DNA of 47,331 nt, taken from contig CANQJG010000002.1 in the NCBI GenBank assembly GCA_947624185.1, forward strand, positions 1-47,331, read 5' to 3'. Of the stretch, positions 21,010-25,583 are shown piece after piece. Source of the DNA: an uncultured Clostridia bacterium. Lineage in GTDB: Bacteria; Bacillota; Clostridia; TANB77; CAG-508. The position numbers and the translations under genes were made by a program. The stretch's first letter is position 1; each line of letters starts with the position of its first letter. The notes beneath the pieces are model-generated. The model had not been told where the DNA came from. It did not search any database and worked only from the letters and a program-made list of their open reading frames with translations.

Positions 21010-22300
21010 CTAAATTATCTTGTTATATCCAAAACTAATGGTCTTTTTATTTATAAATCTTTCCACTGCATATCTCATAGCATCCATCAAATGATTAAAA
21101 TCATCTATTGGTTTATTAATTTTGTTTCCAAATTTATCTTCATCCCAAGTATAATTACTTATTTCTGTTATAAAATTTACACATCTAGGATGGATGATTA
21201 TTTCAAAATCTTGTATAAATTGTATTCCATTATTTATACTGTCTTTTCCTTTTACTGCACTTGTTATTCTTCTTAATCCTAATCCTTGTAACTCATCTAT
21301 TGACTTTGGCTCTGCACAATCTGCAGTTATTTTTTCTTTTGAATATCCCATTTGATTTACTTTTTCATATATTATTTTATTACTCATTCCTTTTTGATAC
21401 ATTTCATCAAATACATATATCTTTTTATTTTTCAAATCTATTGCACCGCAAAAAAGTGCTGTTGGGTCATTTGTATATCCAAAATCTAACCCAAAAGCAC
21501 TTTCTAGATTCCTTATTATATCTAAATCAAACTTTTCTTCTTTCCAGTTTTCATATATTAATCCTTCGACAATTCCCCAATTACCCAAACCTGCAACTTG
21601 ATATCTTCTAGGATTATTTATTTTCATCCTGTCAAATACTTTCTTGTCTGCTTCATCTAACCACTCATTACACATATAATTAGTAGTTATAGCAAATATA
21701 TCATCATCTTTTATATCATAGAATCTATGCTTTAACCAATGATGCTCATTCCACGGATTAAATGTTAATGTTATTTGCTTAAATAGTCCTTCGGGAACTT
21801 CTCCGTCTTATGCTTTCATCTATGATGTCAAAGTCTGATTCTTTTGTTATTTCATAAGCTTCTTCTATCCATAACCAACATAACACACCTACTTCTACTG
21901 TTATTGATGTTATTTTTAATGGATCATCTAAACCTCTAAAGAATATTTTTTGTCCTGTTGGCTTATACTTCATTTCTAATGGACTTTCTTTTATTTCCCA
22001 AAACTCATCTACTTGTAATCTATGTATTGCCCATTTTAATTCTGCAAAACAACTATCTTTCAAAGTTCTATATGTTTTTCTTATTACAAGAGTATTTGCT
22101 TTATCATATTTCATCATATTTGCTATTATCCATAAAGCTGTGGTCTTTGACTTCTTACTTGCTCTTGAACCTTTACACACTCTATATCTGCATTTACAAT
22201 GCCAATATTCTGCATATCCTTTTCCTACAATACTTTGTAATGATAATCTATTTACTTGCTTTTGTTGTTCTTTTGCTAATATTTTACTCTGTAATATCAT
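21010..22300 (-). CDS. terL: terminase large subunit (PBSX/Terminase_3-like), encoded in two frames
   Basis: Part 1 is 22300..21806 (...CWLWIEEAYE...DESIR). Part 2 in the +1 frame is 21804..21010 (GEVPEGLFKQITLTFNPWNEHHWL...). Together they give about 429 aa, but only if the C at 21805 is skipped. Confidence 0.8.
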
Positions 22301-22679
22301 CTTGTATTACCACTGGAATGCTTCCACTATGCTCCACTTTTTCTTTAAATGTTCCCCATCTTTTGCCTAACAATTCTGCACATTTGGTTCTCTCTTGTAA
22401 TGATGCATCTAATCCAAATTGGTCTTTTTCCTCTCCTCTCATTACAGCAGTTAAATATTGTAATACTTCTTCCTGTGAGGCTATTCTTTTATCTTCTTTT
22501 TCTTGTAGTTTTGCTTGAATAAAAGTGTCAAGTTTTGTAAGGTTTTCATTTCCAATACTTCTTGCTGTCTTCTTACTATATCCTGCTCTTCTTGCACTTT
22601 CTGTTGCATTGGCAGTTTCAATATAGTAATCTATAAATCTTTTCTGTTTTTCTGTTAGAACTTTATTCACTTGCCTCAC
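22284..22679 (-). CDS. terS: terminase small subunit (Terminase_2-like)
   Basis: LTEKQKRFIDYYIETANATESARRAGYSKKTARSIGNENL signature. The ORF overlaps the terL start. Confidence 0.75.
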   Translation of the reverse strand: MRQVNKVLTEKQKRFIDYYIETANATESARRAGYSKKTARSIGNENLTKLDTFIQAKLQEKEDKRIASQEEVLQYLTAVMRGEEKDQFGLDASLQERTKCAELLGKRWGTFKEKVEHSGSIPVVIQDDITE

Positions 22680-22944
22680 TTCCTATCTTCTTATATTCCC
22701 CTGCTAAATACTTCATTAAATCTATTTTGCTATAACATTCATAATCTTGTTTATATCTTTCAACTAATTCTATTTTATCTTCTTTTATATTATAGATTTC
22801 TTCAAATATTCTTTTTAATACTTGATATTTGATACTATATTTTTCTTTCTTTTCTGAATAAAATTGAAAGCTATTTATTTTATATAATTGTTCTTTTTGT
22901 TTTAATGCGTATAATAATTTATTTATGTTTTGATTTATATTCAT
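22663..22944 (-). CDS. hypothetical protein, first ORF of the packaging operon
   Basis: 93 aa, with AAAAAGGAAG upstream of the ATG. Confidence 0.55.
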   Translation of the reverse strand: MNINQNINKLLYALKQKEQLYKINSFQFYSEKKEKYSIKYQVLKRIFEEIYNIKEDKIELVERYKQDYECYSKIDLMKYLAGEYKKIGSEASE

Positions 22945-22959
22945 TTTTACTTCCTTTTT

Positions 22960-23670
22960 TATAAGACACTATGTAAGATATATTGGATTTATCAAGCTAG
23001 CTTCACTTGATTTATAAGGCATCTTGAGAACTTTAATAATCTAATCCTTCTGAAATATTAAAGAAACCATAACCCCAACTATTTTTATATATCCTACATA
23101 CTACCTTATAATTAAACAAATATATTATTAGAGTTTCCCCTTACAAACTATTACCTACTTAATTGTTCAACCACTGTGAGAACAAGTCTGAGCATATAGT
23201 AGCGACCCATACACTTCTTGCCCCTTTCTAGCACATACAAGATTGATTACTTGTAAATTTCACTCATCATTCAGATAATTTGTCTTTTTGTATTAATGCC
23301 TAATACATCAAAATGTTTTACTGTACTTATCTCGTTTGAGCTACTTTAACCTAGTTATGTCTTATAGGCACTTTTCAGTACCTTCACGAGAAATAGTCTT
23401 ATTTAGCATTACCTACATTGCTTCATTGTAGCTAACAATGAGATATAGGCTTATTGACTACTAGTCCGTCTATTGCGACTACGACAACTCTAGTGTTTTA
23501 TTAAGCGATAATATTTGCACATTACCCATTATTGATTTTTACATCTTCTCTACATATATTGCTATATATAGAAAGCAACCTTCCAAAAGTATCCTTATGG
23601 CTGACTACTTATCGGGTAATTCCAAGCCGTATGATCTTACGGTTTAGCACTTGGGTAATAATATATTTAA
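22960..23670 (-). ncRNA. candidate large structured RNA, part downstream of the tRNA-like element
   Basis: No credible ORF on either strand. Two hand-counted 60-nt lines give 38-42% G+C, against about 20% in a nearby coding line. Nested hairpins are present, for example CCAAG-CCGTA-tgatct-TACGG-tttagca-CTTGG (23622-23654) and ATCAAG/CTTGAT (22991-23011). Strand is inferred from context. Confidence 0.45.
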
Positions 23671-23745
23671 TGGTGGAAACATTAGGACTTGAACCTACAT
23701 CTCTTGCTTATAAGCAAGTACTCTAACCAATTGAGCTATATTTCC
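23671..23745 (-). tRNA. tRNA-like gene with aberrant anticodon arm (undetermined or pseudo)
   Basis: GGAAATA/TGTTTCC acceptor stem, D arm GCTC-AATTGGTTA-GAGT, T arm with GGTTCAAGTCC, encoded CCA. The anticodon arm is the perfect palindrome CTTGCTTATAAGCAAG, leaving at most 6 loop nt (UUAUAA). Confidence 0.65.
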
Positions 23746-24084
23746 ATATAACAGAAAATGTATACTAAACTCTTAGTCAATCGGACACTAAGCCGTCCGT
23801 TTTAGTCATACATTTCCAGGAACCTTTTCTACTTCTTGGTAGATAGGTAATTTGTGTTAGAATAAGATTTGCACTTATTATGACAATAACATACTATTAC
23901 TGGCATTACGAACTCACCTTCCCTTTATCAGAGGGCTGTTATTATCTACTCTGCGTCTACTATTAAGTAGGCTTATTATTCCATACTTTTTACCAAACTA
24001 AAGCTTTAGCTTGTCTATTCCGCCACTAACACATATATTTCACAGCTCTTTAACTATATTTACATAGTTAGTAACTGTTGAAAA
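23746..24084 (-). ncRNA. candidate structured RNA, part upstream of the tRNA-like element
   Basis: ORF-free with raised G+C. Hairpins include CGGAC-actaagcc-GTCCG (23782-23799) and CCCT-ttatcag-AGGG. Confidence 0.35.
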
Positions 24085-24255
24085 CTAATTTTCTTTTGTT
24101 TTCTTACAAAATTCTGAGCATTTGTAATTTATACAATCTGCTTCATTTTTTATATTTAATGTTATATTACATTCTTCATACCCTTTATCCACATAATGTA
24201 CACATTTTGGGCATATCTTTTCTTTATATTTATTTATTATTTCTTCTGTACTCAT
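24085..24255 (-). CDS. small Cys-rich protein (56 aa, absent from the ORF track)
   Basis: TAAAGGAGAAAAAAT precedes the ATG at 24255. Sequence MSTEEIINKYKEKICPKCVHYVDKGYEECNITLNIKNEADCINYKCSEFCKKTKEN, with six Cys including CxxC. Confidence 0.5.
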   Translation of the reverse strand: MSTEEIINKYKEKICPKCVHYVDKGYEECNITLNIKNEADCINYKCSEFCKKTKEN

Positions 24256-24665
24256 ATTTTTTCTCCTTTAGACAAAAATTAAAAGCCTATCATAAGATAG
24301 ACTTATAAATTTATTATTTATTTTTTTACAATTGTAATTAAAAAACTAATTGCAGACATCCAAAATGAAAAGTAATTATATACTTCTCTATACTTTTTCA
24401 TATGTTTTTCTAATCTTTCTAGCCAACTTTTCTTTCGTGTTACTCCTATGAATTTCCACTTCCTATATCATCACCTCCTTTTTTAATGAATTTTAGAGGT
24501 AATGACAGCTTTACTAAATAAGTATTCCTATAGATTTCTCCTTTGCAAAAAATTATATATTATTTGGGACTGTTTTTATTATAACACATTATATCATATA
24601 TTTTCGCAAAATTTGTTTTATGTATACCAAAAAGAAAAATATTTATTATTTTGTCGAATAAAATA

Positions 24666-24694
24666 TTGACTTATTTTCCATTTTTTGATACTTT
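24666..24694 (+). promoter_or_regulatory. candidate promoter of the plus-strand small membrane protein cassette
   Basis: TTGACT, a 17-nt spacer ending in TGa, then TACTTT. Confidence 0.4.
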
Positions 24695-24725
24695 ATAATT
24701 AATTATTTAATTTAGTCACTTCTTT

Positions 24726-24844: not shown

Positions 24845-25021
24845 TTGGAGACATCTATGTTGTTAGCAATTCGACTTCTTGGTATTGCTTTAATTATTTT
24901 AATTATTGGAATAGTTGTATGTTTGCTAGCTAGTTTAGGCTATAATACATATATACGATATAAAACCAACAATAAAAAAATTGAAGTTCACGCCAAGAAC
25001 TCCAATTCAAAAATTAAATAA
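24845..25021 (+). CDS. small hydrophobic membrane protein (58 aa), type I toxin-like or exclusion-like
   Basis: TTG at 24845 lies 8 nt after AGGAGG (24831-36). Sequence LETSMLLAIRLLGIALIILIIGIVVCLLASLGYNTYIRYKTNNKK... It runs opposite to the flanking phage genes and has its own terminator. Confidence 0.6.
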   Translation: METSMLLAIRLLGIALIILIIGIVVCLLASLGYNTYIRYKTNNKKIEVHAKNSNSKIK

Positions 25022-25027
25022 GATCTG

Positions 25028-25061
25028 TGACAAGGACTTTGTTCCTTGTCATATTTTTTTT
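25028..25061 (+). terminator. intrinsic terminator
   Basis: TGACAAGGA-ctttgt-TCCTTGTCA followed by T8. Confidence 0.75.
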
Positions 25062-25430
25062 ATTTAAATAATGGAATAGGTTAGGACTTATGTCCTGACA
25101 TTATTTATTTCTTCTGTATATTTTATACATTTAATCTTCTTGTTTGTCAAAAACAATTACATTACAATTTCATTTCATTTTCTTGTATAAAATGTAACTA
25201 GATTGCAATATTTGTATTAGTATTATATACGACTTTATTAGAAATTTCAATAATTTCTATATAAATTTTATATAATAATTATATAATAATTATGTAAATT
25301 TGTCAAATTTAATACTCATAACTAGAATTGAGCTACATAATTAGGAAGCACTATAGACAATTCTACGCGTCATCAAATAATTAGCAAACCAATATAATTT
25401 ATCTAGTATCATTATATTTAGCCTTCTAGT

Positions 25431-25468
25431 CAAAATAAAAGAATTATCTATGATGCTTAGATAATTCT
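25431..25468 (-). terminator. intrinsic terminator downstream of the late activator gene
   Basis: Minus strand reads AGAATTATCTA-agcatca-TAGATAATTCT followed by TTTATTTT. Confidence 0.6.
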
Positions 25469-25562
25469 TCAGGAATATTCACAATTCTAGTCATCTCGGG
25501 ATTACCCACACACATTAGTATGAGTGATGACTTTTTGACTTACTAACATTTTAACATATTTC

Positions 25563-25580
25563 AACCGGACAAACCGGACA
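25563..25580. repeat. 9-bp tandem direct repeat AACCGGACA x2
   Basis: Perfect tandem copies right after the stop of the 25584..26030 ORF, forming a local GC-rich patch. Confidence 0.7.
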
Positions 25581-25583
25581 CTT

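What the first reader, a model, noticed from the sequence alone, without database searches (positions are those of the whole stretch)
22960..24084. About 1.1 kb ORF-free, GC-enriched, hairpin-rich tract in the late-operon leader: candidate large ornate ncRNA
Between the small Cys-rich ORF and the first packaging ORF, no frame on either strand is credible. The phage is otherwise almost gap-free. Two hand-counted lines give 38-42% G+C, against about 20% for a tape-measure line. Nested helices are easy to find: 22991-23011, 23622-23654, 23782-23799 and CCCT/AGGG near 23930. No terminator separates the tract from terS/terL, so it would be co-transcribed with the late genes. The setting recalls ROOL and GOLLD RNAs as I remember them: a Firmicutes prophage, a tRNA-type gene embedded, late expression. 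I cannot verify their consensus from memory, so this may be a member of those families or something new.
Basis: partly seen in the sequence, partly recalled or inferred. Interest (0 to 1): 0.75.

Follow-up and report, generated by a model that had tools for sequence, protein, structure and literature searches.

The report
ROOL RNA gene with tRNA-like leader
The gene-free stretch ahead of this prophage's DNA-packaging genes holds a full-length copy of ROOL, a known large phage RNA that builds hollow RNA cages, joined to a slightly defective tRNA; it is a new copy of a known family whose function is still unknown.

Summary
Rfam's ROOL model (RF03087) matches window 23110-23678, minus strand, over its full length (328 bits; cut-off 99; E 6e-75). 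GOLLD does not match.

The 1.1-kb tract is a five-part RNA cassette, not one RNA:
- a conserved promoter-like element (24012-24084);
- a ~266-nt leader;
- a tRNA-Ile(UAU)-like gene with a 6-nt anticodon loop (23671-23745);
- ROOL itself;
- a ~160-nt structured leader of the packaging operon (22945-23109).

Across 35 homologues the Rfam structure covaries strongly. The window also keeps complementarity for kissing loop B4, a subunit contact in the solved ROOL nanocage.

In related viral contigs ROOL sits flush between tRNA genes. That suggests its ends are made by tRNA-processing enzymes.

None of 80 prophage loci related by terS carries ROOL, so the cassette is accessory.

Verdict: a new member of a known family, of modest interest. 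Separately, terL needs a conserved +1 frameshift.

The parts
24012..24084 (-). Block 'upA', the conserved 5' element of the RNA cassette. It holds a promoter-like TCAACA (24076-24081), a 17-nt spacer and TATAGT (24053-24058), overlapping the inverted repeat TAACTAT-N6-ATAGTTA (24051-24070).
   Evidence: 85-95% identical in the same orientation in viral contigs whose held stretches show no homologue of the window's packaging genes (L054, L024, L004, L005, L010, L046, L138). It also precedes a lone tRNA-Thr in the ROOL-less terS relatives L071 and L080. The palindrome occurs once in the window and once in each of 18 of 139 loci. Promoter function is inferred, not shown.
23854..24011 (-). A ~158-nt leader segment with no counterpart at this position in the compact cassettes (L004, L005, L010, L046). 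It contains the hairpins at 23921-23935 and 23955-23972.
   Evidence: In L004, L005, L010 and L046, upA abuts upB directly. L054 has a different ~190-nt segment here. No Rfam match at E<=1. The whole leader 23746-24052 folds no better than shuffles (z = -1.45).
23746..23853 (-). Leader block 'upB' (conserved core 23809-23851, a small hairpin) plus a ~60-nt spacer containing the hairpin 23782-23799.
   Evidence: The core is 91-95% identical just upstream of the ROOL-adjacent tRNA in L004, L005, L010, L024, L046 and L054. Function unknown.
23671..23745 (-). A tRNA-like gene derived from tRNA-Ile(UAU). The acceptor, D and T arms are intact and CCA is encoded, but the anticodon loop is 6 nt (UUAUAA; anticodon arm 23703-23718). 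Its 3' CCA abuts the ROOL 5' end.
   Evidence: Rfam tRNA 57.3 bits. ARAGORN reports 'tRNA-?(Ile|Tyr)(at)'. It aligns best to the tRNA-Ile(UAU) at the same junction in L002, differing by loss of C32. No second copy was found to cross-check the deletion.
23110..23678 (-). ROOL RNA gene. The mature RNA is probably about 23670 to 23110. Landmarks: B1 loop 23632-23638; CAAUAGACG 23467-23475; B4 loop 23426-23438 and its partner 23401-23413; variable linker about 23276-23336; UCUGAAUGAUGAGUGAAA 23258-23275; GCUCAGACUU 23184-23193.
   Evidence: RF03087, model positions 1-574 of 574, 328.2 bits, E 6e-75. 159 of 191 well-conserved consensus positions are kept. 116 of 153 model pairs are canonical, against 60 +/- 6 in shuffles. 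MFE z = -4.03. Covariation is seen in 35 homologues. The B4 kissing-loop complementarity UUAGC/GCUAA is present.
22945..23109 (-). Structured leader of the orf93-terS-terL packaging operon. A long stem (arms 23087-23109 and 22961-22983) encloses two hairpins, including 22991-23011. A promoter-like TTGATA, 16-nt spacer and CATAGT lies at 22968-22995, followed by the RBS of orf93.
   Evidence: MFE -38 kcal/mol, z = -3.83. It is 87% identical in L103 (CANQGW010000020.1), where unrelated sequence precedes it and no ROOL does. It therefore belongs to the phage backbone, not to the ROOL cassette.

Best explanation
The tract is a non-coding RNA cassette on the minus strand. It sits between a small Cys-rich ORF and the orf93-terS-terL packaging operon of a prophage of a low-G+C gut Clostridia bacterium. 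Its core is a full-length ROOL RNA gene (23110-23678), fused at its 5' end to a tRNA-Ile(UAU)-like gene whose cloverleaf is intact but whose anticodon loop has 6 nt.

Shown:
- family membership;
- conservation and covariation of the ROOL fold;
- conservation of one inter-subunit kissing loop;
- the modular make-up of the flanks.

Inferred by homology with solved ROOL structures: the RNA assembles into a homo-oligomeric (hexameric or octameric) nanocage.

Inferred from anatomy:
- The cassette is transcribed from the conserved upA promoter-like element about 375 nt upstream, as a leader-tRNA-ROOL precursor.
- The ROOL 5' end is released by the tRNA 3'-end maturation pathway, acting just after the encoded CCA.
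- In relatives the ROOL 3' end is set by RNase P cutting at a downstream tRNA that starts 1-13 nt after ROOL.
- The window has no downstream tRNA. Its 3' end would instead be set at or before the long stem that begins at the ROOL 3' boundary.

The biological role of ROOL is unknown in the literature. The tight embedding in tRNA arrays, and tRNAs inserted in the cage-internal linker of some relatives, point to a role tied to tRNA or translation during phage growth. That part is speculation.
For: - Rfam ROOL match, full length, 328.2 bits against a gathering score of 99.1, E 6e-75. The next-best families in the tract are only the tRNA itself and a sub-threshold chance match (24.2 bits against 65.7) on the opposite strand of the tRNA.
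- 83% of well-conserved consensus positions are kept.
- Covariation on the Rfam structure in 35 sequences: 73.7% of cells paired against 59.3% shuffled; 123 pairs with double changes against 92 +/- 3.7; covariation score 0.423 against 0.09-0.18 with slid partners.
- Fold z = -4.03.
- B4 inter-subunit contact: 5 WC bp in the window. 94% of sequences have >=4 WC bp with their own partner, against 35% with non-self partners, with at least 7 distinct cores. The contacts are taken from the Kretsch et al. 2025 supplement.
- Flush tRNA junctions: ARAGORN finds an abutting upstream tRNA in 15 of 53 ROOLs and a downstream tRNA within 25 nt in 30 of 53. The Rfam tRNA model finds more. The upstream tRNAs have several identities, all ending CCA immediately before ROOL.
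- Degenerate tRNAs also occur at this junction in other lineages.
- L. salivarius ROOL is a discrete, stable 520-nt RNA whose promoter maps 225-450 nt upstream (PMC5643018). That matches the geometry here.
- ROOL is absent from all 80 terS-related prophage loci by nhmmer, and from the 18 of them checked with Rfam.
Against: - No expression data exist. The promoter, co-transcription and processing sites are all inferred from sequence.
- Promoter-like hits in the region are not more frequent than in shuffles (23 against 18.7 +/- 4.1). upA rests on conservation alone, and in L011, L014, L022 and L044 it lies downstream of ROOL.
- The upstream tRNAs encode CCA. By general knowledge this disfavours RNase Z, so the nuclease that separates tRNA and ROOL is unknown.
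- The window lacks the downstream tRNA seen in most relatives.
- Contact B1 keeps only 3 of 4 pairs, by hand alignment to the contacts listed.
- In the cmscan alignment the AU-rich outer helices are one nucleotide out of register.
- The 6-nt anticodon loop could be an assembly error.
Confidence: 0.9

Rival explanations
1. The ROOL copy is a decaying relic. The cassette has lost its downstream tRNAs and its tRNA has a damaged anticodon loop, so the RNA may no longer be made or used in this prophage.
For: The tRNA has a 6-nt anticodon loop. No tRNA follows ROOL, unlike 30 of 53 relatives. Contact B1 has one mismatched pair (hand alignment). The cassette is absent from the 80 terS-related prophage loci.
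Against: The window's ROOL scores as high as or higher than its relatives (328 bits against 287-330). It keeps 83% of conserved positions, the helices and the B4 complementarity. upA and upB are intact. A decaying copy should have accumulated disruptive changes.
Confidence: 0.08
2. The whole ~1.1-kb tract is one larger ornate RNA: a ROOL with functional 5' and 3' extensions, or a new class that includes ROOL-like parts.
For: The tract is contiguous, on the same strand, and has no terminator-like site inside. The 3' flank is strongly structured (z = -3.83). Blocks upA and upB are conserved next to ROOL in several contigs.
Against: The flanks are separable. upA occurs with a lone tRNA and no ROOL (L071, L080), and downstream of ROOL in L011, L014, L022 and L044. 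The 3' flank occurs in L103 without ROOL. 158 nt of the leader are missing from the compact cassettes. The leader folds no better than shuffles. A tRNA separates the leader from ROOL, and in relatives tRNAs abut both ROOL ends.
Confidence: 0.03
3. The tract is a degraded protein-coding gene, or a different known RNA such as GOLLD, a group I or II intron, or a riboswitch leader.
For: None found beyond the absence of ORFs.
Against: There is no credible ORF on either strand. All 4227 Rfam families were searched at E<=1 over 22600-24700. Only ROOL, the tRNA and one sub-threshold chance match came back. Covariation follows the ROOL RNA structure.
Confidence: 0.01

Closest known systems
ROOL RNA (Rfam RF03087; Weinberg et al. 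2017, PMC5737381). Solved structures: env-120 octamer PDB 9MDS (Kretsch et al. 2025, PMC12286853), E. faecalis octamer 9J3T and L. salivarius hexamer 9J6Y (listed in PMC12990946).
   Same: Full-length covariance-model match. Same helices, conserved motifs and position of the variable linker. B4 kissing-loop complementarity is kept. Size is 569 nt against a family mean of 581. Same context: a prophage, next to a tRNA.
   Different: The closest sequences found are only ~88% identical (L024, L138). The adjoining tRNA has a 6-nt anticodon loop. No tRNA follows the 3' end. B1 keeps 3 of 4 pairs. Oligomeric state is untested.
L. salivarius megaplasmid lncRNA, which is ROOL (Cousin et al. 2017, PMC5643018)
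   Same: A discrete ROOL-sized RNA whose promoter maps 225-450 nt upstream of the mature 5' end, so it is processed from a precursor. The geometry is similar here: the upA -10 box lies ~375 nt upstream.
   Different: That copy is on a megaplasmid, and its paper reports no tRNA next to it (tRNA is mentioned once). Its expression is measured. Here nothing is measured.
GOLLD RNA (Rfam RF01998)
   Same: A large ornate phage or prophage RNA that lies in tRNA arrays and forms nanocages. Some GOLLD RNAs carry tRNAs in the linker (PMC12286853).
   Different: Its sequence and fold are unrelated. There is no GOLLD match in the window at the gathering score, or at E<=1 in the tract.
Stable RNAs matured as part of tRNA transcripts, for example the species 1 and 2 RNAs in the phage T4 tRNA gene cluster, and MALAT1/mascRNA in mammals (from my own knowledge, not checked here)
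   Same: A non-tRNA stable RNA whose ends are set by tRNA or tRNA-like structures recognised by tRNA-processing enzymes.
   Different: Processing of ROOL by RNase P or other tRNA enzymes is inferred here only from 0-13-nt junction spacing. There is no biochemical evidence.

Membership tests
ROOL (RF03087) | Covariance-model score above the curated gathering score over the full model | tested here: met
   328.2 bits against 99.1, model positions 1-574 of 574, E 6e-75, minus strand 23110-23678. Reproduced with permissive filters.
ROOL (RF03087) | Conserved multi-junction secondary structure supported by covariation | tested here: met
   116 of 153 model pairs are canonical in the window, against 60 +/- 6 shuffled. 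In 35 homologues, 123 pairs show double changes against 92 +/- 3.7, and the covariation score is 0.423 against at most 0.18 for slid partners. The AU-rich outer helices (helices 1, 2, 11, 12) are poorly paired in this alignment because of a 1-nt register slip.
ROOL (RF03087) | Highly conserved nucleotides and motifs | tested here: met
   159 of 191 upper-case consensus positions are kept. The blocks invariant in the 35-sequence alignment are present: UCUGAAUGAUG.GUGAAA, AAUAGAC, AGUAGC, CAGAC.
ROOL (RF03087) | Length near 581 nt, with a variable unstructured linker at a fixed position | tested here: met
   569 nt. The unaligned variable segment is about 23276-23336, at the model's long loop.
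ROOL (RF03087) | Genomic context: phage or prophage, near tRNA genes | tested here: met
   Immediately upstream of terS (PF03592) and terL (PF04466/PF17288), with a tRNA-like gene abutting the 5' end. Context as described in PMC5737381 and PMC12286853.
ROOL (RF03087) | Complementarity of inter-subunit kissing loop B4 (env-120 307-310 with 332-335) | tested here: met
   Window UUAGC/GCUAA, 5 WC bp. It covaries across 36 sequences: 94% have >=4 bp with their own partner against 35% with non-self. Contact list.
ROOL (RF03087) | Complementarity of inter-subunit kissing loop B1 (env-120 38-41 with 465-468) | tested here: inconclusive
   Hand alignment by sequence context gives window loop GAUC against GAUG: 3 WC pairs plus one G-G. 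Most of the clade has U at that position, giving G-U. It was not scored automatically because adding env-120 to the alignment failed.
ROOL (RF03087) | Assembly into a homo-hexameric or homo-octameric nanocage | not testable with these tools
   Needs in vitro transcription with native gel, mass photometry or cryo-EM.
ROOL (RF03087) | The remaining predicted pseudoknots and tertiary motifs (Z-anchor, kink-turn, loop E) | not tested
   The Rfam structure line used here carries only nested pairs. The env-120 numbering could not be transferred reliably, because the PDF-derived sequence lost about 9 nt.
GOLLD (RF01998) | Covariance-model match | tested here: not met
   No match at the gathering score in the window, nor at E<=1 in 22600-24700.
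tRNA (RF00005), for the element at 23671-23745 | Cloverleaf with a covariance-model score above threshold | tested here: met
   57.3 bits against 29. 7-bp acceptor stem, D and T arms, discriminator A and encoded CCA.
tRNA (RF00005), for the element at 23671-23745 | Seven-nucleotide anticodon loop with a 3-nt anticodon | tested here: not met
   The loop is UUAUAA (6 nt). ARAGORN reports a 2-nt 'anticodon (at)'. The homologous tRNA-Ile(UAU) in L002 has CUUAUAA. The element is therefore filed as tRNA-like. An assembly error cannot be excluded.

The most novel reading that the evidence does not exclude
ROOL genes may be built as 'tRNA-punctuated' units. A tRNA or tRNA-like cloverleaf is fused to the ROOL 5' end and usually another follows the 3' end, and these serve mainly as processing signals. 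That would explain why copies unfit for decoding persist at the junction: the 6-nt anticodon loop here, and the mismatched acceptor and D stems in the L031, L010 and L050 lineages. The whole unit, with its own conserved promoter-like element (upA), would move as an RNA cassette between unrelated phage backbones. Some ROOLs carry a tRNA inside the cage-internal linker (L001, L048). Taken together, this would tie the unknown function of ROOL nanocages to handling of tRNAs.
Probability: 0.3. Interest if true: 0.5.

Novelty: new member of a known kind. Interest (0 to 1): 0.3.

Why it matters
ROOL is one of very few natural RNAs known to form protein-free nanocages, and its function is still unknown. 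One more copy adds little by itself.

This locus and its relatives do give a clear anatomical picture:
- ROOL lies flush between tRNA or tRNA-like genes.
- It sits behind a conserved promoter-like element.
- It behaves as accessory cargo just upstream of the packaging genes.
- An inter-subunit kissing loop covaries across the clade.

These points make two questions directly testable. How are ROOL's ends made? Is cage assembly under selection in vivo? The locus is also a compact natural construct (promoter, tRNA handle, ROOL) for expression studies.

Tried and rejected
- BLAST of the tract against 50,697 deposited phage genomes in distant mode: no match. A 15-kb 'near' search found only capsid and portal similarity to one phage, plus a short hit in a Streptococcus phage.
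- Exact-pattern scans for the window's tRNA anticodon arm, allowing either loop length, in genome, viral and metagenome collections: nothing. The 6-nt loop could not be cross-checked.
- A metagenome scan with a ROOL 3' motif gave four loci, at best 88% identical.
- Rfam at E<=1 on both flanks: nothing besides ROOL and the tRNA.
- More copies of the downstream leader: only the contig already held, so no covariation test was possible.
- Adding env-120 to the alignment with mafft --add misaligned it, and the PDF-derived sequence had lost about 9 nt. Contacts were re-anchored by sequence context instead.
- My first palindrome pattern used the wrong spacer and missed the window's own copy. This was corrected.
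- The idea that upA is a repeated phage regulatory motif was rejected: it occurs once in the window.
- The idea that the downstream flank belongs to ROOL was rejected because L103 has it without ROOL.

Full report
**1. Observation**

The interval 22945-24084 (1140 nt) has no minus-strand ORF of 50 aa or more. All flanking genes are on the minus strand:
- a 56-aa Cys-rich ORF at 24085-24255;
- a 93-aa ORF (orf93) at 22663-22944;
- terS at 22284-22679;
- terL from 22300 down to 21010.

Pfam confirms terS (PF03592) and terL (PF04466 and PF17288).

G+C of the tract is 32.4% against 27.1% for the window. That is the 98.5th percentile of same-sized windows.

Other gaps of 400-780 nt exist in minus-strand ORF coverage, so the phage is not 'almost gap-free'.

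**2. Identity**

A scan of the whole window with all 4227 Rfam models gives three matches at gathering score:
- ROOL (RF03087) at 23110-23678, minus strand: model positions 1-574 of 574, 328.2 bits against a gathering score of 99.1, E 6e-75.
- A tRNA at 23674-23745, minus strand, 57.3 bits.
- A second tRNA at 42085-42160.

A permissive search (E<=1) of 22600-24700 adds only a sub-threshold chance match on the opposite strand of the tRNA. GOLLD does not match.

The window copy keeps 159 of 191 well-conserved consensus positions. 116 of 153 model base pairs are canonical, against 60 +/- 6 in shuffled sequence. Most mismatches lie in the AU-rich outer helices. There a 1-nt register shift restores pairing, and the MFE fold shows that register (z = -4.03).

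**3. Homologues and covariation**

No deposited phage carries the tract.

A conserved ROOL motif found 55 viral contigs. A profile search finds ROOL in 52 of them, up to 87.5% identical to the window. Four metagenome contigs were added.

On a 35-sequence alignment I projected the Rfam structure and counted pairs.

| Measure | Observed | Control |
|---|---|---|
| Cells paired | 73.7% | 59.3% (shuffled) |
| Pairs with changes on both sides | 123 | 92 +/- 3.7 (0 of 500 shuffles reach the observed value) |
| Covariation score | 0.423 | 0.09-0.18 (3' partners slid by 1-3 columns) |

**4. Quaternary contacts**

Kretsch et al. (2025) list the inter-subunit contacts of the env-120 ROOL octamer.

Contact B4 (307-GGUA-310 with 332-UACC-335) corresponds in the window to UUAGC (in 23426-23438) and GCUAA (in 23401-23413), giving 5 Watson-Crick pairs. 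Across 36 sequences, 94% keep at least 4 WC pairs with their own partner, against 35% with partners from other sequences. At least seven distinct complementary cores occur.

Contact B1 keeps 3 of 4 pairs, by hand alignment.

So the sequence features needed for cage assembly are largely present. Assembly itself is untested.

**5. The tRNA-like element**

ARAGORN draws a normal cloverleaf: a 7-bp acceptor stem, D and T arms, discriminator A and an encoded CCA. The anticodon loop, however, is 6 nt (UUAUAA).

It aligns best with the tRNA-Ile(UAU) at the same junction in L002, whose loop is CUUAUAA. The difference is loss of one C.

I found no second copy of this exact cassette in any collection. 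A real deletion and an assembly error therefore cannot be told apart.

**6. Junction anatomy across the family**

In the close relatives, a tRNA ends exactly where ROOL begins. The upstream tRNA may be Thr, Phe, Ile, Trp or an imperfect Trp-like element, always ending in CCA just before UUAAAUAUAU.

- ARAGORN finds an abutting upstream tRNA in 15 of 53 ROOLs.
- It finds a downstream tRNA within 25 nt in 30 of 53, and 19 of those are tRNA-Arg(CCU).
- The Rfam tRNA model recovers further flush tRNAs that ARAGORN misses: L004, L031, L024, L055, L001.
- Several junction tRNAs are degenerate, with mismatched acceptor or D stems (L031, L010, L050).

The literature already says that ROOL lies near or within tRNA arrays and may be co-transcribed with them (PMC5737381, PMC12286853, PMC12990946). 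I did not find the exact flush spacing, or processing by tRNA enzymes, described in the papers I read.

In L. salivarius, ROOL is a discrete 520-nt RNA whose promoter maps 225-450 nt upstream (PMC5643018). That fits maturation from a precursor.

**7. The flanks**

*Upstream.* Block upA (24012-24084) is 85-95% identical in contigs whose held stretches show no homologue of the window's packaging genes. It carries TCAACA, a 17-nt spacer and TATAGT, overlapping a TAACTAT/ATAGTTA palindrome.
- It also precedes a lone tRNA-Thr in the ROOL-less terS relatives L071 and L080.
- The palindrome is single-copy in the window and in each of 18 loci.
- Block upB (core 23809-23851) is 91-95% conserved just upstream of the junction tRNA.
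- The 158 nt between upA and upB are absent from the compact cassettes.
- The leader as a whole is not unusually structured (z = -1.45).

*Downstream.* Segment 22945-23109 folds into a long stem enclosing two hairpins (z = -3.83) and contains a promoter-like TTGATA-16-CATAGT. It recurs at 87% identity in L103 with unrelated sequence upstream and no ROOL. It therefore belongs to the packaging-operon leader. No further copies were found.

**8. Accessory status**

None of the 80 prophage loci recovered through terS (up to 90% identical terS, with up to 4 kb of flank) contains ROOL by nhmmer profile. Rfam models on the 18 closest agree.
- Four of the 18 have a single tRNA at the equivalent place.
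- In the closest relative, L056, ORFs are listed there instead.

The region just upstream of orf93-terS is therefore a variable slot for RNA-gene cargo. The ROOL cassette is shared with viral contigs that otherwise look unrelated.

**9. Mechanism, with status of each step**

- Shown: the RNA is a ROOL, its fold is under selection in this clade, and B4 complementarity is kept.
- Inferred by homology: it assembles into a homo-oligomeric cage.
- Inferred from anatomy: it is transcribed with the tRNA-like element from upA. Its 5' end is released by tRNA 3'-end maturation. Its 3' end, which in relatives would be set by RNase P at the next tRNA, is set here by another event near the long stem at 23087-23109.
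- Speculative: a role linked to tRNA or translation during lytic growth.
- Co-transcription with terS/terL is possible, since no terminator-like site was found. It is not required, because the downstream leader has its own promoter-like site.

**10. Verdict**

Interest is modest. The junction anatomy and the covarying inter-subunit loop are useful to people working on ROOL, but they do not reveal its function.

**11. Side observations**

*terL frameshift.* terL is split over two frames at AUA-AGA-C-GGA (the C is at window 21805).
- The same extra C is present in 13 distinct relatives with synonymous variation around it.
- More distant relatives lack it and are in frame.
- Skipping the C gives a 429-aa TerL with one continuous Terminase_3 match: profile 3-200 of 201, 182.9 bits, against 119.6 bits for the truncated ORF.
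- This looks like a conserved programmed +1 frameshift.

*tRNAs inside ROOL.* Some ROOLs carry a tRNA inside the variable linker: L001 (1955-2026) and L048 (662-734). Kretsch et al. mention this arrangement only for GOLLD.

Noticed in passing
window 21010-22300 (-); shift site about 21798-21809, extra C at 21805: terL is split across two reading frames at AUA-AGA-C-GGA. Thirteen distinct relatives carry the same extra C with synonymous changes around it, while distant relatives lack it and are in frame. Skipping the C yields a 429-aa TerL with a continuous PF04466 match (3-200 of 201, 182.9 bits). This is a candidate conserved programmed +1 frameshift at a rare CGG codon. One literature search found no report of it.
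   Followed up: partly
L001:1955-2026 within ROOL 1600-2195; L048:662-734 within ROOL 495-1088; similar inserts seen by eye in L055 and L007: [quoted passage not shown] The papers I read mention tRNAs in the linker only for GOLLD.
   Followed up: partly
window 22945-23109 (-) and L103:254-408: A ~155-nt strongly structured leader (z = -3.83) lies upstream of the first packaging-operon gene. It is 87% conserved in a second MAG whose terS is only 57% identical. The few substitutions in its hairpins are A to G opposite U, which is compatible with RNA pairing. It could be a regulatory or processing RNA, or a DNA-level site. With only two copies there is no covariation test.
   Followed up: partly
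window 42082-42160 (-): A second tRNA, tRNA-Arg(CCU), has 59% G+C, much higher than the phage-borne tRNA-like gene (37%). It sits just past a block whose GC and AT skews are reversed (39.5-42 kb). It may be a host tRNA serving as the prophage attachment site. A 13-mer search found no convincing repeat of it elsewhere.
   Followed up: partly
window 24256-24698 and 24855-25583: Two further stretches upstream of the tract lack any minus-strand ORF of 50 aa or more (443 and 729 nt). A terminator-like hairpin lies at 24283-24304 (-). No Rfam family matches either stretch at gathering score, and the first has no match at E<=1 either.
   Followed up: no
L007:9774-10055 (+): A FuFi-1 RNA (RF02986, 77 bits) lies about 9 kb from ROOL on the same viral contig.
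   Followed up: no
L139:5965-6039 (-): A metagenome contig with a diverged ROOL also encodes a tRNA with anticodon CUA, which ARAGORN calls 'Pyl'. This is an amber-suppressor-type tRNA and hints at stop-codon recoding in that phage.
   Followed up: no
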